The notes under the pieces were generated by a model, which saw only the letters and a program-made list of their open reading frames with translations, was not told where the DNA came from and searched no databases. 64,000 nt of DNA from positions 1,088,001 to 1,152,000 of the forward strand of contig CBDFJF010000001.1 in assembly GCA_965248265.1 (NCBI GenBank). Direction: 5' to 3'. The stretch comes from Candidatus Latescibacterota bacterium. Its GTDB lineage: Bacteria > Latescibacterota > UBA2968 > UBA8231. Below are positions 5,389 to 59,348 of this stretch, piece by piece (within the stretch, counting starts at the first letter, position 1; every line of letters begins with the position of its first letter). The position numbers and the translations under genes were made by a program.

Positions 5389-5405
5389 GCGAAGGAGTAC
5401 CCCGC

Positions 5406-28624: not shown

Positions 28625-28903
28625 GCTGACTGGCTGGCACCGCTGCGCGCACAGATGAAGGTGGTTTTTATTACTGGCTACCCGGGAGACGATGCGCTAC
28701 AGAATCTCTTGGCAAACTCGGATTTCGCTTTTCTAGCCAAGCCGTTCACGCGTACTGCACTGCTCACCAAGGTCCGGAAGAGTCTGGACAGCTAGCTGGA
28801 AATACCCACTTCTGCCTGTACCCCACTGCTACGCAACTGCTCGATCTCCCTCTTCAGCGCCTCAATCTGCGTCTCGTAGTCCTTGGTGACCGAGGGCCAC
28901 TCC
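28625..28903. repeat. Direct repeat copy 2 (orphan receiver 3' fragment plus intact gene end)
   Basis: Encodes ADWLAPLRAQMKVVFITGYPG...KPFTRTALLTKVRKSLDS* with no upstream gene body. Confidence 0.9.
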
Positions 28904-29433: not shown

Positions 29434-29813
29434 CGTCTTGTCTCTCCGGTTGATTCAGCACTTAACTCGTGTGCCGGCGCCTCCCCCAGATGTGCCTCGA
29501 TCCTTTCGGCTAATTCGCTCCTCGAAATCATCCCCTCAACTTTGTCTACGGCGCGCCCGCTGCTGAAGAGGAGTAGCGTCGGGATCGACGCTACTCCCAT
29601 TCTCTGAGCGAGTTGCCGCTGCCTGTCGAAGTCGACGGTAACGAACGTCGCCTTCCCTGAAAACTTCCCAGCCAGAGCATGAATTATGAGGTTGACAATC
29701 CTGGCTGATCCACTCCAGTCTGCGCTGAAACAAACCACGACAGGTTGAGGATTTTCGAGCACCATCAGACGAAACTTCGCGTCTGTCAGGGCGGTAACGA
29801 GCTGGTTGTTCAC
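29430..29813 (-). CDS. Thioredoxin-fold protein lacking CxxC
   Basis: PVVVCFSADWSGSA in place of WCGPC; GVASIPTLLLF..G cis-Pro motif retained. Confidence 0.8.
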   Translation of the reverse strand: MNNQLVTALTDAKFRLMVLENPQPVVVCFSADWSGSARIVNLIIHALAGKFSGKATFVTVDFDRQRQLAQRMGVASIPTLLLFSSGRAVDKVEGMISRSELAERIEAHLGEAPAHELSAESTGETRR

Positions 29814-30592
29814 TTGAACGAGACCTTCTGGTCAGCGGATGTGGCCTGCTGAATCGTCTCCACGGCTTCCTCGGTGGTCCATACGGTATTCGCCATGAAG
29901 CGAAAGTTGATTAATGCTGCCTGGTACCCGTCCCCTTCAGGCACGATGGCTGCCGCCGTGGCATCACTGACCACGGCGACCTCGAAGCCACGCTCCAGGA
30001 ACTCACGCATGTGGGCCTCCGTGCACAGGTTCGCAGACATGCCTCCAAGGATGACCTTGTCGATGCCTCGTTTTCTCAATTGCAGCATCAGGTCGTTGTT
30101 TTCGGGCCCGTACACCTTGTGTGGGTTTGCTACTACGGTATTTCCATCATTGATGTACGGCTTGTAGACTTCGAGCCAGTCCGCACCCGATCCCTCGAAT
30201 CCATCGATGTTCAAGGGACCCTTGCGGTCGAACATGCCGATGTTGTGCATGAGGACTTCGAGAGCTCCCTCAAACTTCCAGCCGTGGTCGGTTGGATAGT
30301 AGTAGTGCGGCGAAACGAATACCGGGATGCCGTTCGCCTTGGCCGTTTTCAGCAGCGCTTCGATGTTGGCCACGGTGTTGTTCTCGGTCACACTTGCGCC
30401 AACCACGCCCCAGGTCACGCCATCCGGGCTGAGGAAATCGTTCTGTGGATCCGTGATGACCAGGGCTGTACGCTCGGGGTCGATTTTCATCCCGGGATCG
30501 GGAAGGGCGAAGACGACAGAAGCCAAGCTGGAAATGATGAGCGCGATAATGGACAGAAACTGTGCCGTCAGAGACATCGTTAGGGATTTCAT
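29810..30592 (-). CDS. Isochorismatase-family cysteine hydrolase with N-terminal signal-like segment
   Basis: TALVITDPQNDF (Asp), HKVY (Lys), ANLCTE (Cys). Confidence 0.88.
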   Translation of the reverse strand: MKSLTMSLTAQFLSIIALIISSLASVVFALPDPGMKIDPERTALVITDPQNDFLSPDGVTWGVVGASVTENNTVANIEALLKTAKANGIPVFVSPHYYYPTDHGWKFEGALEVLMHNIGMFDRKGPLNIDGFEGSGADWLEVYKPYINDGNTVVANPHKVYGPENNDLMLQLRKRGIDKVILGGMSANLCTEAHMREFLERGFEVAVVSDATAAAIVPEGDGYQAALINFRFMANTVWTTEEAVETIQQATSADQKVSFK

Positions 30593-30672: not shown

Positions 30673-30688
30673 TGCAAGGGCCATGCCA
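30673..30688 (-). promoter_or_regulatory. sigma54 -24/-12 promoter of the cysteine hydrolase operon
   Basis: Minus strand TGGCATGGCCCTTGCA, GG-N10-GC. AT-rich tract at 30721-30743 could bind IHF. Confidence 0.8.
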
Positions 30689-30899
30689 GGAAAGAACACT
30701 ATCCGGATAGATCCTGTAACATATTGTTAAAAATATTGTTATGACATTTCATCGAGTTAGACGATAGTCGAAATTCGGAGAAAGATCCTTGATATCGCGT
30801 GGCGCCCACGACATATCACGGAAATTGTCTCGACTTCTCCCGGGGTTCTGCGAAGGCCAGCAAAGTCACGCAACGACTGCAATACAAGATGACTTCAAC

Positions 30900-32918
30900 A
30901 TGATTGAAGAGCGCGCAGGCAACCCTCTTGAGCGCATCGCCCTGGAGATGACATCCAGCCTCGATCTGTCGGAGGTTCTGTCGTCCATCACCGAGGGATT
31001 GGTCGAGGATTTCGATGCCGCTTTCGCACGAATTTGGCTGATCCGTCCGGGTGATTTGTGTGAGGTATGCCACAAGGTCGATCTGTGCACAAACCGGCAG
31101 TCTTGTCTACATCTGACGGCCAGTGCGGGGATGTACACGAGCACTGCCGGCGATCACCGCCGAATTCCCATTGGAGCACTCAAGATCGGAGGCATCGCCC
31201 AGGACGGGTGCTCCCTGTCGACCAACGACTTGATGAATGATGACCGGGTACCTAACAAATCCTGGTTGAGAGAGAATGACCTGCGCTCCTTCGCCGGTCA
31301 CCCCTTGGTGTTTCGTGATGAAACCCTTGGGGTACTGGGTCTTTTCAGTCGAAGGCTGATGGAACAGGATGAGTTTGCCAGGATCGGCCTCTTTGCCAAT
31401 CAGGCGGCCGTCGCCATCAAGAACGCTCAGCTGTTCGAGGCCCTGCGCGAGGACATTACCAGTCGCAAGAAAGCAGAAGACGCGCTCGACTCGATGCGCG
31501 AAATGAACGAGCTGATCCTGCGGTCTGCGGGCGAAGGGATCTACGGACTGGATCGGGAAGGAAACACGACATTTGTGAATCCGGCTGCGGCCCAGATGCT
31601 GGGGTGGCAACCTGAGGACCTGTTGGGCAAACCCCAGCACGCCCTCATTCACCACACCCGTCCGGACGGACGAGCCTACGACCGCCAAGATTGTCCGATT
31701 TACGCCGCTTTCAAGGACGGACTCGTACACACAGTGAACGACGAGGTCTTCTGGCGCAAAGACGGCAGCAGCCTTCCCGTCGAGTACACCAGCACGCCCA
31801 TTCGGGATGATGACGGCCAACTCACGGGAGCGGTCGTAACCTTCCGAGACATCACCAAGCGCGTCGAGGCCGAGAACGGTCTGCGAGACGCTCTCGGCCA
31901 GGTCGAGCAGCTCAAGGACCGTCTTCAGGTAGAGAATACGTATCTGCAGGAAGAGATTCGGTTCGAGCACAACTTCAACGACATCATCAGTAGCAGTGAG
32001 TCCTTCAAGAACGTCCTCCGGAGCGTGGAGCAGGTGGCAGCGACGGAGGCGACCGTGTTGATTCTTGGCGAAACCGGCACCGGCAAGGAGCTCATCGCCC
32101 GTGCCGTGCATACAATCAGCGCGCGTGGGGAGAGACCGCTGGTCAAGGTAAACTGCGCCGCGTTGCCGGCGAACCTGATCGAGAGTGAACTGTTCGGCCA
32201 CGAGAAAGGTGCCTTCACGGGTGCCGTGGCCCGCAAGCAGGGTCGCTTCGAGTTGGCCGATGGCGGAACGATCTTTCTGGACGAAATCGGCGATTTGCCC
32301 CTGGACCTTCAGGCCAAGCTGCTGCGCGTGTTGCAGGAGAACGAGTTCGAACGCCTCGGAGGTACACAGACCATTGCCGTCGACGTCCGGGTGATCGCGG
32401 CTACTAACCGCGACCTGGAGGCGGCCAGTCGTGCCGGGGACTTTCGCGAGGATCTGTTCTACAGACTGAACGTGTTCCCGATCTCGCTACCGCCACTGCG
32501 CGAGCGCCCCGAGGACATCCCGCTACTGGTATGCCATTTCGTGCACAAGGTCGGAGCGAAGATCGGTAGAAAGATCACGGCGATCCCCCAGAGCACCCTG
32601 GCCTCGCTGCAGACCTACGACTATCCCGGAAACATCCGGGAGCTCGAGAACATCGTGGAGCGTGCCGTGATACTGGCCAACGACGGAACGCTGCGATTGG
32701 ATCAAAACCTGGAATTGCTCCTGAAAAACCCGGCGAACCCGAGTGATGGTGATGCGACACTAGAGGCTGTAGAACGCACGCACATCCTCGCCATCCTCGA
32801 GAACACGAATTGGCGAATCGAAGGTCCCAAGGGTGCTGCCTTGCGACTGGGACTGAACGCCAACACCCTGCGCTCTCGCTTGAAACGCCTGGGAGTCGAA
32901 AGACCTTCGCAAGATTGA
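30900..32918 (+). CDS. sigma54-dependent enhancer-binding protein, GAF-PAS-AAA+-HTH (FhlA-like)
   Basis: [38 protein letters not shown], Fis-type HTH. Start taken at ATG 30900. Confidence 0.93.
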
Positions 32919-32940
32919 TCCTGCCTCCTGGTTTATCCAT

Positions 32941-32968
32941 GATATATCAGGGACACCCACGATATATC
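32941..32968. promoter_or_regulatory. Putative upstream activator sequence GATATATC-N12-GATATATC
   Basis: Two palindromic octamers at 20-bp period, about 95-120 nt upstream of the sigma54 promoter at 33062. Confidence 0.65.
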
Positions 32969-33061
32969 ATGAGTTTTCCGAGCCTCCCACACTCTCGCAG
33001 TTTCCTAAATCTTCACGTATCCAGTTGTAAACAATACTGATACGTATTGCTTACAGCGCCC

Positions 33062-33077
33062 TGGCACCCCACTTGCA
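33062..33077 (+). promoter_or_regulatory. sigma54 -24/-12 promoter of the NmrA operon
   Basis: TGGCACCCCACTTGCA, GG-N10-GC. Confidence 0.82.
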
Positions 33078-33167: not shown

Positions 33168-34337
33168 ATGACCAAACCAAGAATGCTCGTTACGGGAGCA
33201 GCAGGCCACACTGGTTCGCCTGCCGTGCATCAGCTACTGAAAAAAGGATACCCCGTGCGTGCCTTCGTTCGCCGCAGGGATGCCCGAGCCGCCGCGCTGG
33301 AGAAATCTGGCGCTGAGATTTTCGTCGGAGATGTCCTCGACTACCGGAATCTTCGTGAATCGATGATCGGCGTCCAACGCGCTTATCACTGCCCTCCCTT
33401 TGCACCAAACCTTCTGCACAACACCATGCTGTTTGCCGTTGCCGCACAAGAAGCCAAACTGGAAGTGGTGGCGTTGATGAGTCAATGGAATCCGCACCCG
33501 GCGCATCCATCGGTCATTTCGCGCGAGCACTGGATCTCGAACCAGGTCTACCGCTGGATGCCATCCGTGGACGTCATTCACATCAACCCCGGCATTTTCG
33601 CTTTCATCTACCTGCTCGGCCTGCCTGCGATCGTTCACTTTGGCCAGATGATGGCGCCCTTTGGCGACGGACTGAATGCGCCACCGTCGAATGAGGACAT
33701 TGCCCGTGTCGCCACCATGACGCTTGCCGACCCGGCCGCTCATGTGGGCAAGAGCTACCGACCCACCGGCCCCGAACTGATCTCACCCCACGATGTTGCT
33801 GGAACCCTGGGGAAAATCCTTGGCCGCAAGGTTACCTACAAGGACGTGCCTTTCAGGATGTTCAACAAAGCAGCCACCGCACAGGGATTTCCGCGCTCCG
33901 ACATTGTCCACTTGCGCTACTACACTGAAGAGATCAGAAACGGCGCGTTTGCGGTCGGAGCACCGACCGAGCACGTGCTCGAGGTCACCGGATCCACGCC
34001 CGAAGGTTTCGAATCGACTGCTCGTCGATACATCCAGGATCCCTCCCTCATTCACCCGGCACTCAACATCGGGTCGAAGCTGCAGGCGATCGTATTCCTT
34101 TTCAAGATGATGGCTACCAGACCCACAGATCTCGACGCCTGGGAGCAGGACCGCGGCTATCCGCTGTTGAGTGATCCAGTGCTTTCGCAGGACAGCGCCG
34201 AGTGGCGCTCGACGGCCGAACGGCAGCAACTCAACCTTCTCCCGGATGCCGCCGTCGACACCACGGATGTGGGAACCGGCAGAGTGATCGGGCTGCAGAA
34301 AGTCTCGAAAGTAAACCATCCGGCGATGGCATGGTGA
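33168..34337 (+). CDS. NmrA-family NAD(P)-binding protein
   Basis: LVTGAAGHTG, VRAFVRR, EDIARVA, TGPELIS. TAAGGAG RBS. Confidence 0.87.
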   Translation: MTKPRMLVTGAAGHTGSPAVHQLLKKGYPVRAFVRRRDARAAALEKSGAEIFVGDVLDYRNLRESMIGVQRAYHCPPFAPNLLHNTMLFAVAAQEAKLEVVALMSQWNPHPAHPSVISREHWISNQVYRWMPSVDVIHINPGIFAFIYLLGLPAIVHFGQMMAPFGDGLNAPPSNEDIARVATMTLADPAAHVGKSYRPTGPELISPHDVAGTLGKILGRKVTYKDVPFRMFNKAATAQGFPRSDIVHLRYYTEEIRNGAFAVGAPTEHVLEVTGSTPEGFESTARRYIQDPSLIHPALNIGSKLQAIVFLFKMMATRPTDLDAWEQDRGYPLLSDPVLSQDSAEWRSTAERQQLNLLPDAAVDTTDVGTGRVIGLQKVSKVNHPAMAW

Positions 34338-34368: not shown

Positions 34369-34866
34369 ATGGATACGCTGGCGATTTTCGGACTGCAGTT
34401 TCTGTTGAGCCTCATCGTCTTCGGTGTGCTGGCCAAGTGGAAGTTGGCACCCTGGCTCGAAACCTTGCCTCAGCTCCAGGGATTGTTCTGGCTCACCGTG
34501 CCACACGCATTCCGTCACATCGGCTTGGTGTTCCTGGTTCCGGGAGTGGTCGACCAACGGCTGCCGGATGGATTCGCCAATGCCGCGGCCTATGGCGATC
34601 TGGCAACCGCTCTGCTCGCACTGCTGGCACTGGTTGCGCTGCACAAAGGGTCGACTGCCGCAGCCCCCATGGTCTGGATATTCAACATTGTCGGGACCGT
34701 TGACCTTCTCAACGCGCTGCGTCACGACGAGGTTGTTCCGTTGTTCGGGGCTGCCTGGTACATCCCGACATTCATTGTCCCACTGCTTCTGGTCTCGCAC
34801 GCCGTGATCTTCGTCCGGCTTGTCCGATCCCAGAGCGTGGGACACACCGCGGTCGCAGGAGAGTAG
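34369..34866 (+). CDS. Membrane protein (about 5 TM)
   Basis: Hydrophobic; HAFRHIG, AYGDL, FNIVGTVDL motifs. GAGGAGG RBS. Confidence 0.8.
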   Translation: MDTLAIFGLQFLLSLIVFGVLAKWKLAPWLETLPQLQGLFWLTVPHAFRHIGLVFLVPGVVDQRLPDGFANAAAYGDLATALLALLALVALHKGSTAAAPMVWIFNIVGTVDLLNALRHDEVVPLFGAAWYIPTFIVPLLLVSHAVIFVRLVRSQSVGHTAVAGE

Positions 34867-34870
34867 AGTG

Positions 34871-35737
34871 ATGGACCAGACAATCTTGATCGAGAAACGA
34901 GTTGCACCTGAGCCCTCGACTCCCTCCTCACACGGAGACGCCGGCGAGTACCGCTATGACTCTTTCCGTATTGGAGTTGTAATCGATGACTTCAAGTTTT
35001 CACAGAACTCCTTGAAACCGGGACAGGTCCTGCCCAATCGCACCCTGGTCCGCACTGACGGCGAAAGGATCTCGTTAAGGGATTTGTCAGCCGGCCGGCC
35101 GATCGTGCTGGTCACTGGTTCCGTCACCTGCCCCCTCAGCATCAGCACCTTATCGCTGTTCGGGGAGTTGAACCGGTTGCATGGAGATCGCATGGCTTTC
35201 GCCTTCATCTACACTCGCGAGGCCCATCCGGGTGAGAACATCCAGCAACCGGCCACCATGGCGGTGAAAATCGCACACGCTCGCCTGTTGATGGAGATAC
35301 ATGGCGTCGACTGGCCGGTGCTCGTGGACGATCTCGACGGCTCGGTTCACCGAATGCTCGATACCAAACAGAACTCCATTCACATTCTCGATTCTGACGG
35401 CACCATCTTGTTTCGAGCCCTGTTCGCTGGTGACCCTGCCGCGGAAGAAGCGGTCCAGGCTATCGCTCTGTCACATGGACCCCGCAAGCCTCAGGCACTC
35501 GGACGACTCGCCGGTCCTATGAAGTCAATTGGCTACATCGAAGAAACCTTGCGCCACGCAGGCTCACGGGCCGTCGCCGACGTCGTCAAGGCTGTGCTAC
35601 CGATGGCGGCGATGGCATTGATCGCCCGGGCTTTCCCGTTCTTGCCGAAAGCCAGCCGTGGGTGGGCAGCGGCAGGCACTCTGATGGTTGGTGCGACGGC
35701 CATCGTTGTGGGAATTTCGAGCGGGGCCATTCCCTGA
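34871..35737 (+). CDS. Iodothyronine deiodinase-like / peroxiredoxin-fold protein with C-terminal TM
   Basis: RPIVLVTGSVTCP, FIYTREAHPGE, VLVDDLDG. Confidence 0.75.
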   Translation: MDQTILIEKRVAPEPSTPSSHGDAGEYRYDSFRIGVVIDDFKFSQNSLKPGQVLPNRTLVRTDGERISLRDLSAGRPIVLVTGSVTCPLSISTLSLFGELNRLHGDRMAFAFIYTREAHPGENIQQPATMAVKIAHARLLMEIHGVDWPVLVDDLDGSVHRMLDTKQNSIHILDSDGTILFRALFAGDPAAEEAVQAIALSHGPRKPQALGRLAGPMKSIGYIEETLRHAGSRAVADVVKAVLPMAAMALIARAFPFLPKASRGWAAAGTLMVGATAIVVGISSGAIP

Positions 35738-35791: not shown

Positions 35792-36334
35792 ATGGCCTCC
35801 AAAGAAATTCTCCAACTCGGAAATCCCAAACTGCTCGAACCCTGCGAACCCGTTGCAGAAAACGAGCTGGACTTCGCCCGCTCCGTAGCCTCGGACCTGC
35901 GAGACACCAAGAACGCCTTCCGCGCCAAATACGGCTGGGGCCGCGCCATCGCCGCCCCGCAAATCGGCATCCTCAAGCAGATCGTTTTCATGGAAGTGGA
36001 ACCGGGGAACCCCGTCATCTTCATCAACCCCCAGATGTCACACGAGAGCAAAGAGATGATGGCGGTCTGGGACCACTGTATGAGCTTCCCGGATCTGCTG
36101 GTTCAGGTGAAACGGCACCGATCCTGCCAGGTCTCCTACGTCGATGCCGAGTGGCAAGCCCAGACCATTCCGGCACAAGACGAATTGTCTGAACTGCTGC
36201 AACACGAACTCGATCACCTGCACGGAATCATCGCGACGATGCGCGCCATCGACGGGTCACGCTTCGCTCTGCAGAGTCAAAAGGACTTACTGGGCGAGGG
36301 TATGTTCGCCCGGCAGGATTTCAGCGATGAGTAG
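35792..36334 (+). CDS. def: Peptide deformylase-family protein (atypical motifs)
   Basis: LGNPKL, AIAAPQIG, INP, DHCMS, QHELDHL.GI. Confidence 0.8.
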   Translation: MASKEILQLGNPKLLEPCEPVAENELDFARSVASDLRDTKNAFRAKYGWGRAIAAPQIGILKQIVFMEVEPGNPVIFINPQMSHESKEMMAVWDHCMSFPDLLVQVKRHRSCQVSYVDAEWQAQTIPAQDELSELLQHELDHLHGIIATMRAIDGSRFALQSQKDLLGEGMFARQDFSDE

Positions 36335-37109
36335 CGGTGGGAGCGAAGAAAAGAGACAGTTCGACCGCGACGGCTACACGATCTACCACAACGTGCTCGA
36401 CAAAGATTTGGTTGGAGAAGCCAGCGCACATGTGGAGTGGCTTGTCGGGCGACACCCCGATTTGCGCCCGGAGAATCTCGACACCCACTTGGTAGGCGAC
36501 GATCCGTTTTGGGTGCGGCTGATAAGCGACGAACGCCTGTTGAATATTGCCGAGCAGTACGTGGGACCCAACATCGCCCTCTTTGCCTCTCACTACATCG
36601 CCAAGCCCCCGGAAGACGGCCAGCCTGTGCTCTGGCACCAGGACGGATCCTACTGGCCGCTCGAGCCGATGGAGGTCGTGACCCTGTGGCTGGCCGTCGA
36701 CGACTCGACACCGGAGAACGGTTGCATGCGGGTGGTACCGGGAACCCAGACTTCACAATTGCACGAAATGCACAAGTTCACCGACACCCCCAATGTCCTC
36801 GAATCACAGATGGATCCGGATCTGGTGAAGGAGGACCGGGCCGTCGACATCATCCTGGAGGTTGGCGGGGTATCGGTGCATCATCCCAACATCATCCACG
36901 GGTCCAACCCCAACACCTCGGGCGACCGGCGCTGCGGATTGACGATACGTTATATTCCAACTACGACGCGGATCACACACGAAGGCCAGTGGCCGAGCGC
37001 CTTCCTGTTGCGCGGCGATGCCGTTGATGATATCAATAGCTACCTGCCTTGGCCGCGCTACAGACAGGGCGAACACTTACCGTTTCGAGGGTGCGACGAA
37101 TGGGTATGA
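36327..37109 (+). CDS. Phytanoyl-CoA dioxygenase (PhyH) family Fe/2OG enzyme
   Basis: WHQD, WLAVDDST.ENGCM, HGS..N...RR. Confidence 0.9.
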   Translation: MSSGGSEEKRQFDRDGYTIYHNVLDKDLVGEASAHVEWLVGRHPDLRPENLDTHLVGDDPFWVRLISDERLLNIAEQYVGPNIALFASHYIAKPPEDGQPVLWHQDGSYWPLEPMEVVTLWLAVDDSTPENGCMRVVPGTQTSQLHEMHKFTDTPNVLESQMDPDLVKEDRAVDIILEVGGVSVHHPNIIHGSNPNTSGDRRCGLTIRYIPTTTRITHEGQWPSAFLLRGDAVDDINSYLPWPRYRQGEHLPFRGCDEWV

Positions 37110-38005
37110 CGACGACGGATGGTACGACGATCGAAAACTGTCCCGAAACACTCACCCCAGCTCATACAGAGTTGTTCGAGAAGCAGGGATATCTGGCTTT
37201 CGAGAACGGCCTGACGCCAACCGAAATCGAAGCCACCCGCGAGGCCCTGTCGGAGATAACCCGGTCGCTGATGCAGGCCGCCCACCAGGGTGAGGCTGAG
37301 ATTCATACCAGGGCAGGAGCCACCAGGAACTACCGCGGTGTCCAAGTCACCAAACCCGGAACTGATTTCAACATCCACTTCGAGGCGGGCGTTGACCCGA
37401 TGGAGGTGCCCGTCGAGGAAGCGGAGCTCAAGTACCGCAAGCTCGGCGACTACGTCCGTGAGCACGAAGTCTTCCAAGCCCTGGTTACACACAAACGCGT
37501 CAAAGGATTCCTGGAGCAGCTCATCGGCCAGGAAGTCATCCTCAAGAATTCGATGGCGTTGGCCAAGCCGCCGTTTATCGGATCCGAGAAACCCTGGCAC
37601 CAGGACAACGCCTACTTCAACTTCCTGCCACTCGAATTGCTAGCCACAGCCTGGATAGCCGTCGACGACGCCACGCTCGAAAACGGATGCATGCATGTGC
37701 TGCCCGGCCAACACCGCCGCGGCCCGTTGAGGCACCATCACACCACCGATTGTGAAATCGTCTCCGACCGCATCGATCCCACCATTGCCGTTCCAGTGCC
37801 CCTGTCTGCGGGCGGGATCATGTTGTTCTCAGCCATGCTCCCACACCAGACACCGCCTAACCATACTGCGTCACGGCGGCGTGCCCTGCAATTCCAGTAC
37901 CGCGGAATCGGTACCCATGAAGTATCCAAGGAGGAGTACGGCAAGGTCTTCGCTGAAGCGGACGGCAGCCCCGCCTCCTGCGCTCGCGCCTCCGAGAACG
38001 GATAG
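37106..38005 (+). CDS. Phytanoyl-CoA dioxygenase (PhyH) family Fe/2OG enzyme
   Basis: KPWHQD, WIAVDDATLENGCM, HQTPPN..RRA. ATGA overlap with the upstream gene. Confidence 0.9.
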   Translation: MTTTDGTTIENCPETLTPAHTELFEKQGYLAFENGLTPTEIEATREALSEITRSLMQAAHQGEAEIHTRAGATRNYRGVQVTKPGTDFNIHFEAGVDPMEVPVEEAELKYRKLGDYVREHEVFQALVTHKRVKGFLEQLIGQEVILKNSMALAKPPFIGSEKPWHQDNAYFNFLPLELLATAWIAVDDATLENGCMHVLPGQHRRGPLRHHHTTDCEIVSDRIDPTIAVPVPLSAGGIMLFSAMLPHQTPPNHTASRRRALQFQYRGIGTHEVSKEEYGKVFAEADGSPASCARASENG

Positions 38006-52056: not shown

Positions 52057-53865
52057 TCACCAGGAGGCGAGTTCGTTTTCCTTTATGTGGAACCGCGGTG
52101 CCGACACCTCGTCAATCAGCTCCTTTGTGTGCTCGCCGACGCGGACTATGACTCCTGGAAATGCCCTGTCCCACACCTTGATCTCTACGCCTTGTCTGCC
52201 TTCCAGCTGCTGCGTCATGCTTCGACGCCTGGTCACCAGCTGCTGATGGGATTGCGCCAACTCGCCGAGCTGGCGGGCACGACGCGCCAGCAGCTTGCGG
52301 CTGGGGCCAGCCGCTGCCTTGATCAATGCCTTGATCTGATCGAGGTCGATAGTTTCTAATGCGAAACGATTCAGGATGCGCTCCATCTGGGCGTTGCCGG
52401 CGGCGATGCTGCGCTGGATGCCGTCCAGCTCACGCGCCTGCAGTGGGTTGAGCCCCGCCGTCAGCGCTGAAGCCATCCCGTGCATGGTGCCGGCTGTGTG
52501 GGTTTCAATGCCCTTGCGACCCCAGGTCTCGCCTCCCATGATGCTGCCACCGTGGTCGCTCCGGCCACGCGCTATCACGACCTTGCCACCGGCGCGCAGG
52601 TTGGCGTGGTAAGAATAGCTTCCCAGCAGGATGTCTTGACCCGCCGTCACAGACGCCTCCTGCACGTATTGGGCCCTTACCGTACCACCGGCCACGATCA
52701 GCGTCTTGCGACCGACGATGCCCTGACCGGTGACCACGTCCCCGCGGGTTGACAGACTGGCACCGGACTCGACGGTGCCACCGATGGTGACGTCCCCTCC
52801 TGCCTTCACCGAAAACCCCCGGGCGATGGACCCGCTGATGTGGATGGCGCCGGCGAACTTCAGGTTTCCTGTGTGGAAGTCGACGTCACCACGGATGGCG
52901 AGCTGCTCGACCACCCGCAGCTCATCTCCCTCGTGGCGGAGTATTCCCGCGACCTTGGCGTAGTACTCCTCCCGGTCTGCTCCCGGCCGGACTTCGACGT
53001 TTTTCCCGGCGCTCAGTGGGAGATCGCTCCCGTCCTCTGCCGGACGAGGATTCCCAAACACATCCAGCCCGGTTTTCCCTTCGGTAGCGGGTTTGCGCCA
53101 TGCGACCAGCTGGTCGGCCTTTGCATTTGGCGTGAAGTTGACCTCGTGAAAATCGATGGAGCCATCTTCTCGTGTCTGACCAACGCGACGGTCCGTATCC
53201 ACCAGGATCTCGAGCTGGGTGTCTTCTCCGTTTACGGGCTCCTGACCCTGCGCTATCAAATAGAGGCCCCTCTTGTGGGACCCCATACGAATGGCGAGTG
53301 CAAGCTCTTCGATTTTCTCCGCGTCAACTCCAACAACCTCGCCCAACTCGTTTAGATGTTGTTGAATCATCTCCACCGTCACCGAGTGAGCCGACCCGTC
53401 GAGGACCAACCAGTAGACATGCATGCTGTCTGCGTCCACCCACAAAGGTGACCGCACCGCCAGTTCCCCGTCGATCACACACAGATAACCGTAGTGCACG
53501 GCTCGGTACTCGCCCTCAGGTGTAAGGGTGAGACCGGTCGCGGACCCTTCGTCTTGATGTTCCGAGGATGCATGGCGCAGAGCACGGGCTACGATTTCGC
53601 CCTGGGCCGCCGCAATCGCCCGAACCTTGCCGATCGCCAGTCTGTCGATCTGGTCACTGTCCAGCAGATCGACGAGAGCGGTTGAGTCGTGAACCAGCTG
53701 GGTTGCTAAGCGCGACTTGCTCAGTGGGCCGAGGTCGACCAGTTCGATGTTGGATTGCAGGTCGAGCTTGGCCGATTCCCTCTCGGCCAGGTCGTCGACC
53801 TCATCGAGAAAGTCGTCCATCTGGCCGGGATCAATGTCGTTTGGTTTGTCGAGTTTGAGTGCCAT
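52057..53865 (-). CDS. FapA/DUF342 family protein (paralog of 6337-8583)
   Basis: YGYLC, REDGSIDFHEVN, GKNV, GDVDFHTGNLKF.G, GGSIMGGETW shared with copy 1. Confidence 0.87.
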   Translation of the reverse strand: MALKLDKPNDIDPGQMDDFLDEVDDLAERESAKLDLQSNIELVDLGPLSKSRLATQLVHDSTALVDLLDSDQIDRLAIGKVRAIAAAQGEIVARALRHASSEHQDEGSATGLTLTPEGEYRAVHYGYLCVIDGELAVRSPLWVDADSMHVYWLVLDGSAHSVTVEMIQQHLNELGEVVGVDAEKIEELALAIRMGSHKRGLYLIAQGQEPVNGEDTQLEILVDTDRRVGQTREDGSIDFHEVNFTPNAKADQLVAWRKPATEGKTGLDVFGNPRPAEDGSDLPLSAGKNVEVRPGADREEYYAKVAGILRHEGDELRVVEQLAIRGDVDFHTGNLKFAGAIHISGSIARGFSVKAGGDVTIGGTVESGASLSTRGDVVTGQGIVGRKTLIVAGGTVRAQYVQEASVTAGQDILLGSYSYHANLRAGGKVVIARGRSDHGGSIMGGETWGRKGIETHTAGTMHGMASALTAGLNPLQARELDGIQRSIAAGNAQMERILNRFALETIDLDQIKALIKAAAGPSRKLLARRARQLGELAQSHQQLVTRRRSMTQQLEGRQGVEIKVWDRAFPGVIVRVGEHTKELIDEVSAPRFHIKENELASW

Positions 53866-53871
53866 GAGTAA

Positions 53872-54819
53872 TCACGCGGGGCAAGAGGTTTCGGCTTCCA
53901 GCTCGAGTAACTCACTGATCGGTACGTTGTCCGTTTCCAGGGCTTCGGTAACCCTGGCCATGCGCAACAGCAGCGCCGCCTGCTGCGCCAGTCGCCAGAG
54001 TATGTGAGGCACATCCTCCGGATTCTCTTCGTCCTCTTCAAAATCGCCGACCCAGACCACGGCGATGGTGGAGTCACCATAGATGATGGGCGCGGCGACC
54101 GCCCCGGTTGAGGAATCAAGTCTAGGTTCCGACGAAGTGAAAGCGTGCACGGCGATGTGGTCGTCCGTCTGCAACGCCAGGGTCGGCTGCAGAGTCGATC
54201 GGGACCCTCTGGCGAGTGTGAGTTCCAGCTGTCTTGATTGGACATCGGGTTCGTATAGAAGGGCGGCGCGGGCGCCCGTCACGTCGGAAACCACCTGCAG
54301 AATCTCGGCCTTCGCGGCAGCGCGGTCATGGCAATTCATCTGGAACTGAACCAGCCGATCCCGACCTTGCAACTCCTTGAATTGGCGGCTGAGTCTGTCG
54401 TGCGCCTGTTGCAGCTGCCGATGAGCCTCGGCGATGCGATGCTCTGCTCCGTGCTTGTAGATCGCGATTTCGATGGAGGTCTCGAGCTCGCGATCCTGAA
54501 ACGGCTTGAGGATGTAGCCGAACGGTTCGGTAATTTTCGCCCGCTCGACGGTCGTGTCGTCCGCGTAGGCGGTCAAATAAATGACCGGAGTATGGAACTT
54601 GCGACGCACGATCTCGGCGACTTGAATCCCGTCCGTGTCGCCTCTGAGGCGGATATCCATCAGCACCAAGCCAGGCTTCAGGCTCTCCACCATGCCCAGC
54701 GCCTCTTCGCCGGTGCCGGCGATATCGAGCACGTCGTAGCCCATCTCCTGCAGTCTGTACTGCAGATCACGGGCGATCAGGATTTCGTCTTCGACGATCA
54801 GTATTCTGGCCTTGTCCAT
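53872..54819 (-). CDS. Response regulator REC + GAF-like (paralog of 5406-6356)
   Basis: RILIVEDEILIARDLQ, RDRLV.FQM and LWRLAQQAALLLRMARV shared with copy 1. GGAGG RBS. Confidence 0.88.
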   Translation of the reverse strand: MDKARILIVEDEILIARDLQYRLQEMGYDVLDIAGTGEEALGMVESLKPGLVLMDIRLRGDTDGIQVAEIVRRKFHTPVIYLTAYADDTTVERAKITEPFGYILKPFQDRELETSIEIAIYKHGAEHRIAEAHRQLQQAHDRLSRQFKELQGRDRLVQFQMNCHDRAAAKAEILQVVSDVTGARAALLYEPDVQSRQLELTLARGSRSTLQPTLALQTDDHIAVHAFTSSEPRLDSSTGAVAAPIIYGDSTIAVVWVGDFEEDEENPEDVPHILWRLAQQAALLLRMARVTEALETDNVPISELLELEAETSCPA

Positions 54820-54832
54820 TATATCCTCCAGT

Positions 54833-56524
54833 TCATTTGGTTTCGGAAAAAGTCAGTTGAAAACCGGTGCCTCTGTCGCAGTCTATCTCCAGATCGCCCT
54901 GCAACTGCCGGGTGAGATCCTGGACCAGACGCAGACCCAGCGAATCGGCCGTCCGCATATCGACTTCACGGCAGCCGATCCCATCGTCACTTACCCAAAG
55001 CACGTAGCGATCGCCATCCTCGCGAGCCAGTTCGACCTTGACCACGCCGCTGCGTCCATCTGGAAATGCATGTTTGAGGGCGTTGGACAACAACTCGTTG
55101 ACGATGAGACCACATGGTATTGCGGTCTCGATGTTGACGTGTACTTCCTCCATCTGGAGGTCGAGCTCGATGTCACGCACTTCAGCCCCGTATGATTGGA
55201 ACAAGCCGCTTGCCAGTTTGCGGATGTAGGGGGCGAGACCGACCCGGGCCAGATCGGCGGACTGGTACAGCTCCTGGTGAATGAGAGCCATCGACAGCAC
55301 CCGGTTCTGGCTCTCCTGCAGGATCGCCTTGATGCGATCATCGCCGCTGGCAGCAGCTTGATGGCTCAGCAGACTGGAGATGATCTGCATGTTGTTCTTG
55401 ACGCGGTGGTAGACTTCCTGAAGCAGGACTTCCTTCTCCCTCAAGGCACTCTTCGTGCGCTCCTCAGCTTGTTTGCGCTCGGTGACGTCGAAAGCGTAGA
55501 TCCGGATCCGCCCAGTCTCTTTGACGTAGTACATGACCTGTTGGCACCAGTGGCCGTCGACCTCGACTTCCCGGCTCATCGAGGTGGGTGCGTCCACGGC
55601 CCGGAACGCGGCTACGGGCAGATCGGCAAGAAAGGGATGCTCGGTTCTGCGTTGATCGATATCGGGATAAAGCATTTCCGCCCGTGGGTTGAGGTAGTGC
55701 ACTCGCCCATCCAGGTCGGTTTCGATCACGACATTGGGGTTGAGCATCGGAAACGAAGCTAGCCGGTTTAGCTCCTTCTCGACCCGGTGGCGCTCTTCGA
55801 TCTCGAAACGCAGGTGGGTGTTGGATCGGTGCAGACGTCGCTGGGCGATGAGTCCTGCTCGATGGAGACACGCCAGAGACAGCAACAGCACCACGGTGAT
55901 TACGCCAACGCCGACTGCCCATGGTAATGCGGTCCCCCTGACGGTCTCATTGACCACGTCACCGGGAACAAAGACACTGATCAATGCGTCGAGGCTGGCG
56001 CTGTAGGCGAACGCGCCGATGCGGTCCGCATCCTGTGGCGTGCTGTTCGTGCCCACCCAATCGGTCCGCGATGCCGCCAGTTCTTGCGTCGTCGCCGGTC
56101 CGACGTGTCCTTGAGCCCACGTCATGACTCCATCAGCTTCGGTGCCTACGGCATTGGGATCCCTTGTGTGCAGACTCAGCCGGCCCTCGGGGTCGATGAC
56201 GCACAAGAAGCTGCCACGGTCGATGTAGACCTCGCTGTAGTCATTCCATGTCTTGCCGAGGGCTGCCAGAATTTCGGTCTCTGACATCGACTCACCTAGG
56301 GCGTTACTGTGCATGGCGAGGGCGCGCGCCACCTTGTGGTTGCTCTCGTAGATGATCTCGAGAAGGGCGTCGCGACTGGTGACGTAGGAGTAGTAGCCGA
56401 CTCCAAGACCCACCACTATGCTCAGCAATCCCAGAATCAGGGCGATAAGGGACAGGCGGCCGATGTACGCTGTAATCTGATTATCGACAGCCGAGCGATC
56501 GGGAGACGGAGCGGACGCGTTCAT
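54833..56524 (-). CDS. Membrane sensor kinase: periplasmic (Cache-like) domain, PAS, HisKA_2, HATPase
   Basis: Two TMs, [40 protein letters not shown]. Confidence 0.9.
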
Positions 56525-56573
56525 TTGAGATGACTTCCGGCAACGGGTTCGATGATCGGTTCACTCGGGATAT

Positions 56574-56589
56574 CGCAACAACCATGCCG
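56574..56589 (-). promoter_or_regulatory. sigma54-type promoter of the kinase-REC-FapA operon
   Basis: Minus strand CGGCATGGTTGTTGCG, GG-N10-GC, about 50 nt upstream of ATG 56524. Confidence 0.62.
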
Positions 56590-56694
56590 ATGTCATCCAC
56601 GCCAGTAGAAAGCGACGTAAGTGCAGCCGGAGACTGGAGTTTGGCCCACATCAGTGCGCTGTCGCGGAGGTATTGTGGAGAACAGGCTGAACCG

Positions 56695-56722
56695 GATATA
56701 TCGGGATTCGACTCGATATATC
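56695..56722. promoter_or_regulatory. Putative upstream activator sequence GATATATC-N12-GATATATC (second copy)
   Basis: Same octamers and 12-nt spacer length as 32941-32968; about 105-135 nt upstream of the 56574 promoter. Confidence 0.65.
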
Positions 56723-56731
56723 GGGACCTGG

Positions 56732-56758
56732 AACCCGGGCTCAGGCTGAGCCCGGGTT
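56732..56758. terminator. GC-rich hairpin, likely terminator of the lyase gene
   Basis: AACCCGGGCTCAG-G-CTGAGCCCGGGTT, 5 nt past the stop at 56764. Confidence 0.7.
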
Positions 56759-56763
56759 TTGTG

Positions 56764-59348
56764 CTACTTGAGCAGCAGCAGACTCCTGGTCTGCTGAAAA
56801 GTCCCCGCGCGCATGCGGTACAGGTACACCCCGCTGCCCACGGCCGTGCCCGAGGCGTCGGTTCCGTCCCACAAAACCTGGTAAGCCGCAGGTGACTGGA
56901 CCGCATTGACGAGCGTGGTTACCTGCTGGCCCATCAGGTTGAAGATGGTCAGCTCAATCCGCGTCGCCTCAGGCACCTGATACACGATCGCCGTCTGCGC
57001 GTTAAATGGATTGGGGAAGTTGGCCATCAAGCGGAAGTCTGCCGGCAACGCCGCGACATCCTCCAGCACGGACGTTGCCATGGACAAGGTCAACCGGCCT
57101 TCGCCGGCCAGCTGCAGGGTGACAATGCCGTTACTGACAGAGGTTCCTTCGAGCGTGCCAGCGAATTCGGCCGACTCGACGGCACCCACCAGCGGCACGG
57201 AGAGCTCGTACCCCGAGTCGGGTCCACGCACGTAGCCGTCGAGCCCGGTCGGGCTGATTTCGACACTGATATCGACAGCTTCAGTGGCCTGGAAATTCAG
57301 CTCATCCGCAGTTGTCAAAAAAGTTCCGTCCTGGACGCAGAAGCCGGTGACTTCCACTCCGTCGATGCGCGCCAGACCGAACACGCCGTCGCTGTGTGTG
57401 TTCCCAGCCGGGCCTTCAAAACGACCTCCGTGGAAGACGCGTCGCGGACCCACGCGATATCCTGGCCGGCACCGATCGAAACCTGGAGCGCCTGTCCACC
57501 ATCGTTCGCCACTTCCGCAAGAGTTGGCTCACCCTGATCCAACGATCGCGGATAGAGGATGGTCAGGAACTCCGCATTGTCCCCATTCTGCTCAACCTGC
57601 AGCACGGTATGAGTCGGCTCCTCCAGAAAATCGAAGGAATGCACAGCCTCATCTTCGCTGAAGGTCTCACCGGCACTGGCAGTCGTGTAGGCCAGCAACT
57701 CGGCGTTCGTCTGGGTCCATCGTGCCAGATTCCCCTCACGGGCGTAGGTGCCGCCCCCGTCGCCACCTCCATGTCCATGCAGCCGGAACTGGTAGGTATG
57801 CGTCTGGTCGTCTCTGAGTTCGTCGGCAATGACGAAATACTCACTGTCGGTGAACAGAACACGTCGACGCACGTCGACGTCTGCGTAGGACGCATTGACT
57901 TCGGCGTAATCTCCGAAAGCGCTGGTGAAAAACTCCTCCAGGAAGGCGTCGTTGCCCCCATCGATTGATTCGCCTTCGACGATCGCGTTGGGAGGTCCCT
58001 CACCGTCGACGAGGATGACGTTGTGATTGAGACCCCGGTTCACCCGGTTGTGATTGGTGAAGTTGATGTAGCCGGCGTCCAGGGCGAGCATCTCGCCGCC
58101 GGCGTATATGATGAAGCTGGTCTCATCAGCGTGCTCGTGGCCCAGGCCCTGAGACCGTGCGCGTCCGTGTTCGCCGCGCAACAGCATGTAGGTGGCCTGC
58201 TGCGACCAGTCGCTGCGGAAGACGGCGTCGCCTGCTTCGGGCATGAACAGGGTCGGGCCGTGATCCGGCTCCTGCGCCGCCACGGCGTCGTCATAAACAG
58301 CAATCGCATCCATCTCGGAGAACTCACGCACGTACAAACCGCGAGAATTGTTCTCCCAGTCCCAGCGATTTACGCCCCCGCTTTCGTAAGCTGCCGATAA
58401 GTAATGACCATAAAAATCATCAATGTGCCCGTCCTCGATGTTCGGACGTCGCCCATTGGGCAAGCGCAGGTTCAACGACCACTGGTGCATCTTCTGTACG
58501 CGTGAGTCGATCAGCAGATCGGTGCCCGTGAGATTCTTGAGGGCAAACATGTACGGCAGGTACACATCGGCCGCGTAGCGGCTATAGAACGGACCTTCGG
58601 CATAACCGCCGTCGTCATCTATTTGATGCCACAGGGACCGGGTGACCAGATCGAAGGCCCGGTCGGACCAGTCCTGGGGCGTGTTGGCCAGCCCGGTATG
58701 TCCACTCAATGCCATGGCGGCCAAGCCCAACCCGCCATAGGCGCGCACGTGCCAGTTGTCGAGGTGAACTATACTCAGATCCCTGGGATCCGGTGTCTGG
58801 TGCAGGCGGATGACGATATCGTCGAAAAAAGGAACCGGGATCGTGAGAATGACGATACCCTCGTACAGCCGCTGTGCCTCCTCGGCAAGGATGGCGCGAA
58901 TCTCTTCCAGCGACTCGGCATCGCCGGCGACGAAATCGTGGATCATGTCGTAGGCCACGGCGTAGATGGCGACGACTTCGCCTTCGTTGTGCGGCTCGCC
59001 CAGATCGCCACCCCTTGGCGGAAACTGCATCTCCTTGAGCACCTCGACTGCGCGATCCGCGTAGGCGACATCGTCCGTCATCAGGTAGGCAAAGGCCAGG
59101 CTCTTGGCGAAGCGAGCCTTGCTGCGCTCCTCCGTGAAGCTCTCGGGCGTGGACTCGGCGCGGGCCTGAACCGTCTGCCACCAGGTGGCGTAGGGCTCGC
59201 GCTGAATGCGCTCCTTGAGTACGGAAATATCGTCACTCGTGAACAGCAAACCGGGGTGCTGCTCGGTTGGCAGTGTCTGTGCCGGCAAATCGTGAGGAGC
59301 CATGGTCGCAAGCGCCACGATCGCGATTACGGTAACTCTGACTCTCAT
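56764..59348 (-). CDS. Heparinase II/III-like polysaccharide lyase with C-terminal FlgD-Ig sorting domain; one frameshift near 57420
   Basis: HPGLLF, NW, DGGYAEGPFY..Y, GHEHAD..SF, LALDAG, HNVILVDG. ORF 56764-57453 supplies the NFPNPFN..SGVYLY tail; the two join if T4 is T5. Confidence 0.8.

What the first reader, a model, noticed from the sequence alone, without database searches (positions are those of the whole stretch)
56574..56722. Shared enhancer GATATATC-N12-GATATATC links the second FapA module to the sigma54 activator 24 kb away
Seen: GATATATC-gggattcgactc-GATATATC (56695-56722) and GATATATC-agggacacccac-GATATATC (32941-32968) have identical octamers and a 20-bp period. Each lies about 100-130 nt upstream of a GG-N10-GC sigma54-type element (56574-56589 minus; 33062-33077 plus). 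A degenerate version (TTGATATC...GACATATC, 30789-30817) lies upstream of a third sigma54 promoter (30673-30688 minus). Known: bacterial enhancer-binding proteins bind tandem sites about 80-150 bp upstream of -24/-12 promoters. Inference: the activator at 30900-32918, or a close paralog, controls both flanking operons and the kinase-REC-FapA operon as one regulon.
Basis: partly seen in the sequence, partly recalled or inferred. Interest (0 to 1): 0.85.

Follow-up and report, generated by a model that had tools for sequence, protein, structure and literature searches.

The report
Sigma-54 enhancer motif shared by paralogous activators
The repeated GATATATC pairs are real upstream enhancers of sigma-54 promoters, but the motif is the common operator of a whole clade of paralogous activators, so it does not by itself tie the FapA operon to the activator 24 kb away.

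Summary
GATATATC occurs 4 times in the window (0.31 expected) and 42 times in the 7.32-Mb genome. The only two pairs at 20-bp spacing are the two reported sites. Each lies 95-107 bp upstream of a correctly oriented -24/-12 element, and rpoN is present.

The octamer is the core of a roughly 14-bp palindrome (CGA-N-AT-N-TCG). It sits directly after the stop codon of activators with the same C-terminal HTH, in Latescibacterota and in loci labelled as several other phyla.

This genome has six such paralogs (W, D, E, F, G, H) and at least eight enhancer-promoter modules. The two sites flanking the window activator W (30900-32918) are conserved in its orthologs and are almost certainly its own.

The kinase-REC-FapA site is a hybrid. 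It has W-like cores and 20-bp spacing, but the CCCGA/TCGGG flanks seen next to a second paralog clade, E/G, and upstream of the paralogous FapA operon. I put E/G at about 0.5 and W at about 0.3. The "one regulon" reading is only partly supported. This is a new member of a known kind.

The parts
56692..56725 (-). UAS B: two GATATATC octamers (56695-56702 and 56715-56722) with flanks. On the + strand it reads CCGGATATATCGGGA-N5-CTCGATATATCGGGA. The start-to-start period is 20 bp.
   Evidence: The region is non-coding: the longest frame across it is 145 aa. It aligns with the UAS of the paralogous operon.
56574..56589 (-). Sigma-54 -24/-12 element CGGCATGGTTGTTGCG. Its GG lies 107 bp from the proximal octamer, and the element lies about 50 nt upstream of the kinase ATG at 56524.
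   Evidence: P = 3.5e-4 for an oriented 30-bp window. It aligns with TGGCACAGAAGTTGTA of the paralogous operon. No sigma-70-like promoter was found in 56300-57000.
52057..56524 (-). Target operon: HisKA_2 histidine kinase (54833-56524), REC protein (53872-54819) and FapA_N+FapA protein (52057-53865).
   Evidence: Pfam results; ORF list.
32938..32971 (+). UAS A: CATGATATATCAGG and CACGATATATCATG, 20-bp period. It starts 23 bp after the stop codon of the activator.
   Evidence: Conserved in G008 (20-bp period) and G021 (19-bp period).
33062..33077 (+). Sigma-54 promoter TGGCACCCCACTTGCA, 95 bp from UAS A. It drives NmrA-like (33168-34337), deiodinase-like (34820-35737) and two PhyH genes (36144-38005).
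30789..30817 (-). UAS C: degenerate TTGATATC plus GACATATC (CACGACATATCACG). It lies 83-111 bp upstream of the activator ATG and 102 bp from the divergent promoter.
   Evidence: One clear site is conserved at the same place in G008 and G021.
30673..30688 (-). Sigma-54 promoter TGGCATGGCCCTTGCA. It drives isochorismatase-like (29810-30592), thioredoxin (29430-29813) and PNPOx-like (28792-29433) genes.
30900..32918 (+). Enhancer-binding protein W: GAF-PAS-AAA+(Sigma54_activat)-HTH_8, with GAFTGA, Walker A and Walker B motifs. Its HTH helix reads [22 protein letters not shown].

Best explanation
The tandem GATATATC pair at 56695-56722 is a genuine upstream activating sequence.

Inferred mechanism, by analogy with NtrC-type activators: two dimers of a sigma-54 enhancer-binding protein bind two roughly 14-bp palindromes. 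The palindromes lie two helical turns apart, on the same face of the DNA. The bound dimers nucleate the AAA+ hexamer. The DNA loops over about 107 bp, and the hexamer remodels sigma-54 holoenzyme held at CGGCAT-N5-TTGCG (56574-56589, minus strand). This starts transcription of the kinase-REC-FapA operon.

The octamer is not a private signature of the window activator. It is the core (CGA-N-AT-N-TCG) of the operator used by a whole clade of activators sharing the C-terminal HTH GAAxxLGxxxxTLxSRxKKLG. This genome has six such paralogs: W, D, E, F, G and H. Specificity appears to lie in the flanks and the spacing.

W (30900-32918) binds the two sites that flank its own gene. The FapA-operon site carries the CCCGA/TCGGG flanks typical of the E/G subclade. 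It is therefore more likely served by an E/G-type paralog, together with the paralogous kinase-REC-FapA operon at C1:926352-930986. The candidates are G (C1:2381096-2382496, PAS-AAA+-HTH, intact, with no site of its own nearby) and E (C1:932270-933991, which carries a nonsense codon and has lost its REC domain).

My sub-probabilities: real UAS-promoter module 0.9; clade-wide operator 0.9; E/G-type activator for this site about 0.5; W about 0.3.
For: Shown by calls:
1. Uniqueness. There are 42 octamers in the genome. The only two pairs at 20 bp are sites A and B.
2. Constant geometry. The distance from the proximal octamer to the GG of -24 is 95 (A), 107 (B), 102 (C), 119 (D), 106 (E), 107 (F), 108 (I) and 101 (H) bp. 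The G008 E-type module has 107 bp, read from its coordinates.
3. Necessary parts. rpoN is present. No sigma-70-like promoter lies in the intergenic region.
4. Footprinting. W orthologs in G008 (76-78% identity) and G021 keep the pair after the stop codon, one site upstream of the start codon, and both promoters.
5. Clade-wide operator. Paralog D has two copies of CGATATATCGAC after its stop codon and TGGCAC-N5-TTGCA 119 bp further on. Activators in G013, G024 and G049 show the same layout. Of 73 parsed loci from many phyla, 16 have the core within 150 bp of the gene ends. That is 19 hits in 23,060 bp against 11 in 473,924 bp elsewhere.
6. Exact pattern in relatives. The exact tandem pattern occurs in 7 of 61 family genomes. 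The reversed control pattern occurs in 1 of 61.
7. E-type assignment.
   - Sites right after the stop codons of E-clade activators are TACGATATTTCGGG and CGCGATATTTCGGG (G008), CCCGAAATATCGGG and CCCGATATTTCGTG (G045), and TCCGAAATATCGCG (G021).
   - A CCCGA/TCGGG half occurs in 5 of 6 E-clade sites and in 0 of 9 W-clade sites. It occurs in 2 of 2 B sites and 2 of 2 sites of the paralogous operon.
   - In the leave-one-out weight-matrix test, all 9 W sites score negative on E minus W, and all 6 E sites score positive. B scores +3.4 and +0.6. The paralogous operon scores +8.4 and +6.8. The only other full-length homolog of this kinase, in G008, scores +8.3 and 0.0 with 18-bp spacing.
8. The B and E upstream regions align block for block at both the UAS and -24/-12.
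9. The HTH of G is nearly identical to those of the E-clade orthologs.
Against: - B's cores are perfect GATATATC and its spacing is 20 bp, as in W-type modules: 20 bp in A, 20 bp in G008-W, and 19 bp in G021-W and G021-HK. E-type modules have GAAATATC or GATATTTC cores and 18-19 bp spacing. The core term of the matrix favours W by 2.0 bits per site.
- B2 is nearly neutral (+0.6). B's scores on the W matrix (13.3 and 16.8) lie within the range of true W sites (12.0-21.0).
- In G021, a kinase-REC-FapA operon carries W-type sites (-6.5 and -2.1). In G008, such an operon lies about 4 kb downstream of the W ortholog.
- Paralog E, the one encoded beside the sister operon, is broken. A TGA replaces a conserved Trp, its REC domain is missing, and an insertion element sits just upstream. 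The TGA is also read in contigs of four runs from one sample.
- The matrices rest on 9 and 6 sites from 3 genomes each. Two of those genomes (G008 and G021) belong to one genus.
- No binding, transcription-start or expression data exist.
Confidence: 0.5

Rival explanations
1. The window activator W (30900-32918) binds all three sites. It controls its two flanking operons and the kinase-REC-FapA operon as one regulon.
For: - Sites A and B have identical octamers and an identical 20-bp period.
- B's scores on the W matrix (13.3 and 16.8) lie within the range of genuine W sites.
- W is the only activator gene of any type within the window.
- In G021, the kinase-REC-FapA operon has W-type sites. 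Read toward the promoter, they are CGCGATATATCGTG and TGCGATATATCATG. The proximal ...ATATCATG ending is shared with A, G008-W and G021-W.
- In G008, a sigma-54-driven kinase-REC-FapA operon lies about 4 kb downstream of the W ortholog.
Against: - Five other paralogs share the HTH type and the core motif.
- None of B's four half-site flanks has the CAY/CGY...RTG form seen at W sites. Three of the four have the E-type C/G form at the position just outside the CGA...TCG core, and the fourth has T.
- The sister operon, with the same flanks, sits next to an E-type activator gene and not next to W.
Confidence: 0.3
2. Dual or cross-talk input. Site B is a hybrid operator with a W-like core and spacing and E-like flanks. 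Both W and an E/G-type paralog bind it, so two signals meet at the FapA operon.
For: B scores well on both matrices: 13.3 and 16.8 on the W matrix, 16.7 and 17.4 on the E matrix. Module I at C2:386718 also mixes an A-like half (CACGGTATCTCAGGGA) with an E-like half (CCCGACATATCGGG), and it drives an operon containing a PhyH gene, as W's own operon does.
Against: This rests only on small weight matrices. No instance of two activators sharing one UAS was tested here.
Confidence: 0.1
3. The site is a relic or is not an activator site. Either it was duplicated along with the operon and lost its activator when paralog E was inactivated, or the palindromes bind a different kind of regulator.
For: Paralog E is disrupted. 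The -24/-12 element matches only 8 of 11 consensus positions. No RNA data are available.
Against: - Both octamers are perfect and the UAS-to-promoter distance is preserved: 107 bp in B against 106 bp in the sister operon. That is unexpected for decaying DNA.
- The motif is tightly associated with activator genes and sigma-54 promoters across genomes.
- An intact paralog, G, with the same HTH exists.
Confidence: 0.07

Closest known systems
NtrC/NifA-type upstream activating sequences of sigma-54 promoters (general class)
   Same: Dyad-symmetric sites lie in tandem about 100 bp upstream of a GG-N10-GC promoter. A cognate AAA+ activator carrying a C-terminal HTH_8 domain is encoded next to its target. 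The general properties of this class are stated from established knowledge.
   Different: The sequence differs: a CGA-N-AT-N-TCG core inside a roughly 14-bp palindrome. In many members the UAS begins only 5-35 bp after the activator's own stop codon. Three full-text searches found no paper describing this motif as an activator site.
FhlA (E. coli and Proteus formate hydrogenlyase activator) and its UAS
   Same: W has a GAF-containing sensor, an AAA+ domain and an HTH_8 domain. That W's C-terminal helix resembles FhlA's is my recollection and was not tested.
   Different: A passage in PMC7658346 gives the FhlA site as the palindrome TG(A/T)C-(A/G)A(A/T)(A/G)AT-G(A/T)CA. A passage in PMC6615313 groups FhlA and NifA sites as TGT-N10-12-ACA. 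Neither matches CGA-N-AT-N-TCG. The target genes are also unrelated to hydrogenase.
Paralogous activator families with related operators, as reconstructed for Desulfovibrio and Clostridiales
   Same: There are many activators per genome (29 strong PF00158 matches here). Each usually sits beside its target operon, which allows regulon reconstruction by footprinting.
   Different: Here six paralogs share one core motif and differ only in flanks and spacing. I saw PMC4641369 and PMC12316311 only as search listings and PMC6615313 only as passages. Their supplementary motif tables were not seen and could contain a similar motif.

Membership tests
Sigma-54-dependent promoter | GG and GC doublets exactly 10 nt apart, with a TGGCAC-N5-TTGCW-like context | tested here: met
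   56574-56589 (-) is CGGCAT-N5-TTGCG, matching 8 of 11 positions. 33062 (+) matches 11 of 11 and 30673 (-) matches 10 of 11. GGCAY-N5-TTGC occurs 172 times in the genome.
Sigma-54-dependent promoter | rpoN present in the genome | tested here: met
   PF04552 matches at C1:559941-560414 with E = 3.2e-62.
Sigma-54-dependent promoter | Transcription start about 12 nt downstream of the GC, and dependence on sigma-54 | not testable with these tools
   No RNA run holds the stretch.
Bacterial enhancer (UAS) of an AAA+ activator | Dyad-symmetric sites about 80-150 bp upstream of -24, usually in tandem on one face of the helix | tested here: met
   The octamers are palindromic with a 20-bp period, 107 bp from the GG. 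Eight modules in the genome lie at 95-119 bp.
Bacterial enhancer (UAS) of an AAA+ activator | Conservation beside orthologous activators or targets | tested here: met
   For sites A and C, conservation is seen in G008 and G021. Site B has no ortholog to compare. Its paralogous operon, the G008 homolog and the shorter-kinase G021 operon all have a UAS plus a sigma-54 promoter.
Bacterial enhancer (UAS) of an AAA+ activator | Binding by a specific activator's HTH | not testable with these tools
   Only inference from flanks and weight matrices is available.
Sigma-54 enhancer-binding protein (for 30900-32918) | Sigma54_activat AAA+ domain with GAFTGA, Walker A and Walker B motifs, plus a C-terminal HTH_8 domain | tested here: met
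   PF00158 E = 5.8e-74; PF02954 E = 1.2e-6. GAFTGA at residue 437, GETGTGK and IFLDEI are present.
FhlA regulon UAS | Palindrome of the TGWC-N6-GWCA type | tested here: not met
   The sites here are CGA-N-AT-N-TCG. The FhlA motif is taken from a passage in PMC7658346.
Single regulon of activator W that includes the FapA operon | Site B indistinguishable from W's own sites and distinguishable from those of the paralogs | tested here: inconclusive
   The core and spacing are W-like and the flanks are E-like. The E-minus-W score is +3.4 and +0.6 bits.

The most novel reading that the evidence does not exclude
A clade of sigma-54 activators spanning several phyla uses one conserved operator core (CGA-N-AT-N-TCG), placed directly after the activator's own stop codon. 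Paralogs are insulated from one another only by the three flanking bases and by 18- to 21-bp spacing. In this Latescibacterota genome, the multi-copy kinase-REC-FapA modules of unknown function are wired into this network. The 56695 site is a deliberate hybrid, with a W-type core and spacing and E-type flanks, that integrates two activators.
Probability: 0.2. Interest if true: 0.55.

Novelty: new member of a known kind. Interest (0 to 1): 0.4.

Why it matters
Latescibacterota are known to me only from metagenome-assembled genomes (recalled; every record title seen is labelled MAG). Almost nothing is known about their regulation. This work gives three things:
- an operator motif for one activator clade;
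- a first map of at least eight sigma-54 modules in one genome;
- a concrete, testable case of how six paralogous activators sharing one core motif might keep their targets apart.

It also places the enigmatic multi-copy kinase-REC-FapA modules under sigma-54 control. The practical lesson for motif-based regulon calls is that an identical core does not identify the regulator when paralogs share it.

Tried and rejected
- A relaxed genome-wide scan, with up to 3 mismatches over the two octamers, showed no enrichment at 19-21 bp spacing. I dropped the idea of a large regulon.
- I tested whether the residue after "TL" in the HTH (R, Y, E, D or G) sets the flank identity. TLYS goes with TCGA...TCGA in 2 of 2 cases (D and G049). 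TLES proteins in loci labelled Bacteroidota mostly have ACGA...TCGT flanks. No simple code emerges.
- The first FapA module in the window (4306-8583) has no octamer within 1 mismatch and no sigma-54-like element scoring 9 or more of 11 upstream of it.
- The loci around the kinase and FapA genes near the E-type activator in G008 and G021 (L047, L051, L019, L020) added nothing.
- Activators in G026 and G028, 62-64% identical to W, have a different HTH (TLEAR, TLESK). I did not use them as W orthologs.
- A search for more full-length homologs of the kinase found them in 2 of 76 family genomes: G000 (two copies) and G008. No wider comparison was possible.
- RNA evidence: no RNA holder is listed for window:54800-57000. 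Nothing can be said about expression.
- Read laying was used only to check the nonsense codon and the insertion element in paralog E. The four runs come from one sample and are contigs, so they are not independent of the assembly.
- Literature: three full-text searches found no paper using these motif strings for an activator. I read passages of PMC7658346 and PMC6615313. All other papers were seen only as listings. I did not ask for supplementary files. The motif tables in the supplements of PMC6615313 and PMC4641369 could bear on the novelty claim.

Full report
**1. The observation**

The sequence is as described. GATATATC, itself a palindrome, occurs at 32941, 32961, 56695 and 56715 and nowhere else in the 64-kb window. 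Shuffles give a mean of 0.31 copies, and 0 of 100 reach four.

The window is C1:1088001-1152000 of a 7.32-Mb, two-contig genome. Its closest named relative is a MAG labelled Candidatus Latescibacterota. Genome-wide there are 42 octamers. Only four pairs lie within 200 bp of each other:
- the two reported pairs at 20 bp;
- one pair at 72 bp (C1:1278446 and 1278518);
- one pair at 29 bp.

About 0.00024 pairs are expected at any one spacing.

Of the 42 octamers, 7 lie where no reading frame exceeds 150 aa. Six of those 7 belong to three clusters: sites A and B, and the 72-bp pair. Two of these clusters sit next to the only 11-of-11 sigma-54 consensus matches in that survey, and the third (site B) next to an 8-of-11 match.

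The -24/-12 elements are:
- TGGCAC-N5-TTGCA at 33062 (+);
- TGGCAT-N5-TTGCA at 30673 (-);
- the weaker CGGCAT-N5-TTGCG at 56574 (-).

GGCAY-N5-TTGC occurs 172 times on both strands of the genome. A hit in the right 30-bp oriented window therefore has P = 3.5e-4. rpoN is present. No sigma-70-like promoter was found in 56300-57000.

**2. Genes**

- 30900-32918 (+) encodes a GAF-PAS-AAA+-HTH_8 enhancer-binding protein, called W here. It has GAFTGA, Walker A and Walker B motifs.
- To its left, and divergent from it, lie isochorismatase-like, thioredoxin and PNPOx-like genes.
- To its right lie NmrA-like, deiodinase-like and two PhyH genes.
- Site B precedes a HisKA_2 kinase (54833-56524), a REC protein (53872-54819) and a FapA_N+FapA protein (52057-53865), all on the minus strand.

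**3. The sites flanking W are its own**

Orthologs of W occur in G008 (76-78% identity) and in G021, where the gene is split over two frames. Both keep the whole layout: the left operon, a sigma-54 promoter, one octamer, the activator gene, an octamer pair (20 or 19 bp) starting about 35-45 bp after the stop codon, a second sigma-54 promoter, and the NmrA- and deiodinase-like genes.

**4. The octamer is a clade-wide operator core**

The genome has 29 strong PF00158 matches. Six proteins share the C-terminal helix GAAxxLGxxxxTLxSRxKKLG. They are W, D, E, F, G and H.
- Paralog D has CGATATATCGAC twice just after its stop codon and TGGCAC-N5-TTGCA 119 bp further on.
- H has CACGAAATATCGTG and CACGACATTTCGTG after its stop codon, followed by a promoter.
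- A module at C1:956849 lies upstream of the operon that ends with F.
- Module I at C2:386718 drives a DUF3179-DegT-PhyH operon.

Across eight modules, the distance from the proximal octamer to the GG of -24 is 95-119 bp. Five of them fall at 101-108 bp.

The exact tandem pattern occurs in 7 of 61 family genomes. The reversed control pattern occurs in 1 of 61. In G004, eight of the nine copies share one spacer sequence and look like a dispersed repeat. The ninth, G004:C84, has its own spacer and an 11-of-11 sigma-54 promoter match about 100 bp away. The hits in the other genomes all lie upstream of sigma-54-like elements, and three of them lie right after an activator gene.

I also parsed 73 of 80 related loci fetched from genomes labelled Bacteroidota, Ignavibacteriaceae, Acidobacteriota, Planctomycetota, Gammaproteobacteria and others. 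In 16 of the 73, CGA-N-AT-N-TCG lies within 150 bp of the gene ends, often 5-35 bp after the stop codon and in tandem. That is 19 hits in 23,060 bp against 11 in 473,924 bp elsewhere, roughly 35-fold enrichment.

**5. Who binds site B?**

B is the only module with no clade activator nearby. W, 24 kb away, is the nearest.

*Evidence for W*
- B has perfect cores and a 20-bp period, as in A and G008-W.
- In G021, a kinase-REC-FapA operon carries two perfect octamers with W-type flanks and a TGGCAC-N5-TTGCC promoter.
- In G008, a sigma-54-driven kinase-REC-FapA operon lies about 4 kb downstream of the W ortholog.

*Evidence for a paralog*
- The closest relative of the B operon is in the same genome, at C1:926352-930986. 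Its FapA is 61% identical and its kinase 43% identical.
- Its upstream region reads CCCGAGATTTCGGGA-N4-CCGGAAATATCGGGA, 106 bp from TGGCAC-N5-TTGTA. It aligns with B at both the UAS and the promoter.
- Just downstream of that operon lies activator E.
- E-clade orthologs in G008, G021 and G045 are 68-71% identical to E. The G008 protein is REC-PAS-AAA+-HTH. Each has sites of the form CGAwATwTCGGG at 18-bp spacing right after its stop codon. In G008 and G021 these sites drive an ECF sigma factor-like gene.
- A CCCGA/TCGGG half occurs in 5 of 6 E-clade sites and in 0 of 9 W-clade sites. It occurs in both B sites and in both sites of the sister operon.
- I built symmetrised weight matrices from these 9 and 6 sites. 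Leave-one-out scoring separates the two sets completely. B scores +3.4 and +0.6 bits toward E. The sister operon scores +8.4 and +6.8. The G021 FapA operon scores -6.5 and -2.1.
- The G008 homolog of the kinase is the only other full-length one found in 76 family genomes. It scores +8.3 and 0.0, with 18-bp spacing.
- Splitting the score shows that B's flanks favour E by 5.4 and 2.7 bits, while its cores favour W by 2.0 bits each.

B is therefore a hybrid. I lean to an E/G-type activator (about 0.5) over W (about 0.3).

**6. State of the E/G activators in this genome**

E (C1:932270-933991) has a TGA where its orthologs have a conserved Trp (GRGWT). It lacks the N-terminal REC domain of its orthologs. 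An element with terminal inverted repeats that looks like an IS630-family transposon (my label, no family search run) sits directly upstream at about C1:931017-932178.

Contigs from four runs of one sample read the same TGA. They also show the element at roughly tenfold higher depth than its surroundings, so it is multi-copy. These runs are not independent of the assembly.

G (C1:2381096-2382496, PAS-AAA+-HTH) is intact. It is 71% identical to E over the C-terminal 330 residues (AAA+ and HTH). Its HTH helix is nearly identical to those of the E-clade orthologs, and no site lies near it. That makes G a plausible activator for the orphan modules B and E. This step is inference.

**7. Comparison with known systems, and verdict**

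The architecture is the classical enhancer-dependent sigma-54 promoter. The motif differs from the FhlA site quoted in PMC7658346 and from the TGT-N10-12-ACA class in PMC6615313. Three full-text searches found no description of it. Supplements were not seen.

The finding is real and well observed. Its specific inference, one regulon under the window activator, is only partly supported. It is a new member of a known kind and of moderate interest.

Noticed in passing
G000:C1:931017-933991 (outside the window; L053 6017-8992): Activator paralog E looks inactivated. A TGA replaces a conserved Trp in its PAS domain. The REC domain found in the G008 and G021 orthologs is missing. An element with terminal inverted repeats, resembling an IS630-family transposon (my label, no family search run), sits directly upstream. 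Its contig depth is about tenfold that of the flanks, so it is multi-copy.
   Followed up: yes
G000 genome-wide; window 6304-8583 and 52057-53865: The genome has 11 FapA-domain matches. At least three are in kinase-REC-FapA modules: two in the window and one at C1:926352-930986. The first window module has no sigma-54 element or UAS upstream.
   Followed up: partly
G000:C2:2045286-2052644 (L057): Two adjacent proteins of about 1,020-1,054 aa fuse a Reg_prop/Y_Y_Y beta-propeller sensor to a sigma-54 AAA+ activator domain. Many 1,040-1,170-aa homologs occur in relatives. The second copy matched no HTH_8 at the E-value used, yet palindromes (TACGATATGTCGTA and related) still follow it.
   Followed up: partly
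G004, several contigs (L058, L065, L069-L072): Eight near-identical copies of GATATATC-N11-GATATATC with AT-rich spacers are scattered over short contigs, apparently a dispersed repeat element rather than enhancers. A ninth hit, on G004:C84 (L068), has a different spacer and an 11-of-11 sigma-54 promoter match about 100 bp away, so it looks like a true module.
   Followed up: no
G021:C2:77039-78996 (L155 3031-5003): The ortholog of the window activator is split into two overlapping frames of 322 and 335 aa. This is either a frameshift or an assembly error. Its enhancers and promoters are intact.
   Followed up: no
window 56734-56760: An 11-bp GC-rich inverted repeat (CCCGGGCTCAG/CTGAGCCCGGG) followed by TTTTGTG lies between the stop codon of the T9SS-tail protein gene (56764) and UAS B. 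It is probably a terminator that insulates the FapA operon from the gene upstream. The scan tool did not list it.
   Followed up: partly
G000:C2:386718-389734 (L156): Another enhancer module (CACGGTATCTCAGGGA plus CCCGACATATCGGG, 19-bp period) lies 108 bp from TGGCAT-N5-TTGAT, whose -12 element reads GA instead of GC. It sits upstream of a DUF3179-DegT-PhyH operon.
   Followed up: partly
G008:C1:6587396-6590475 (L157 4396-7475): In G008 and G021, the REC-PAS-AAA+-HTH E-type activator appears to drive an ECF sigma factor-like gene from a sigma-54 promoter (TGGCACGTTTGTTGTT). This would be a sigma-54 to ECF sigma cascade.
   Followed up: no
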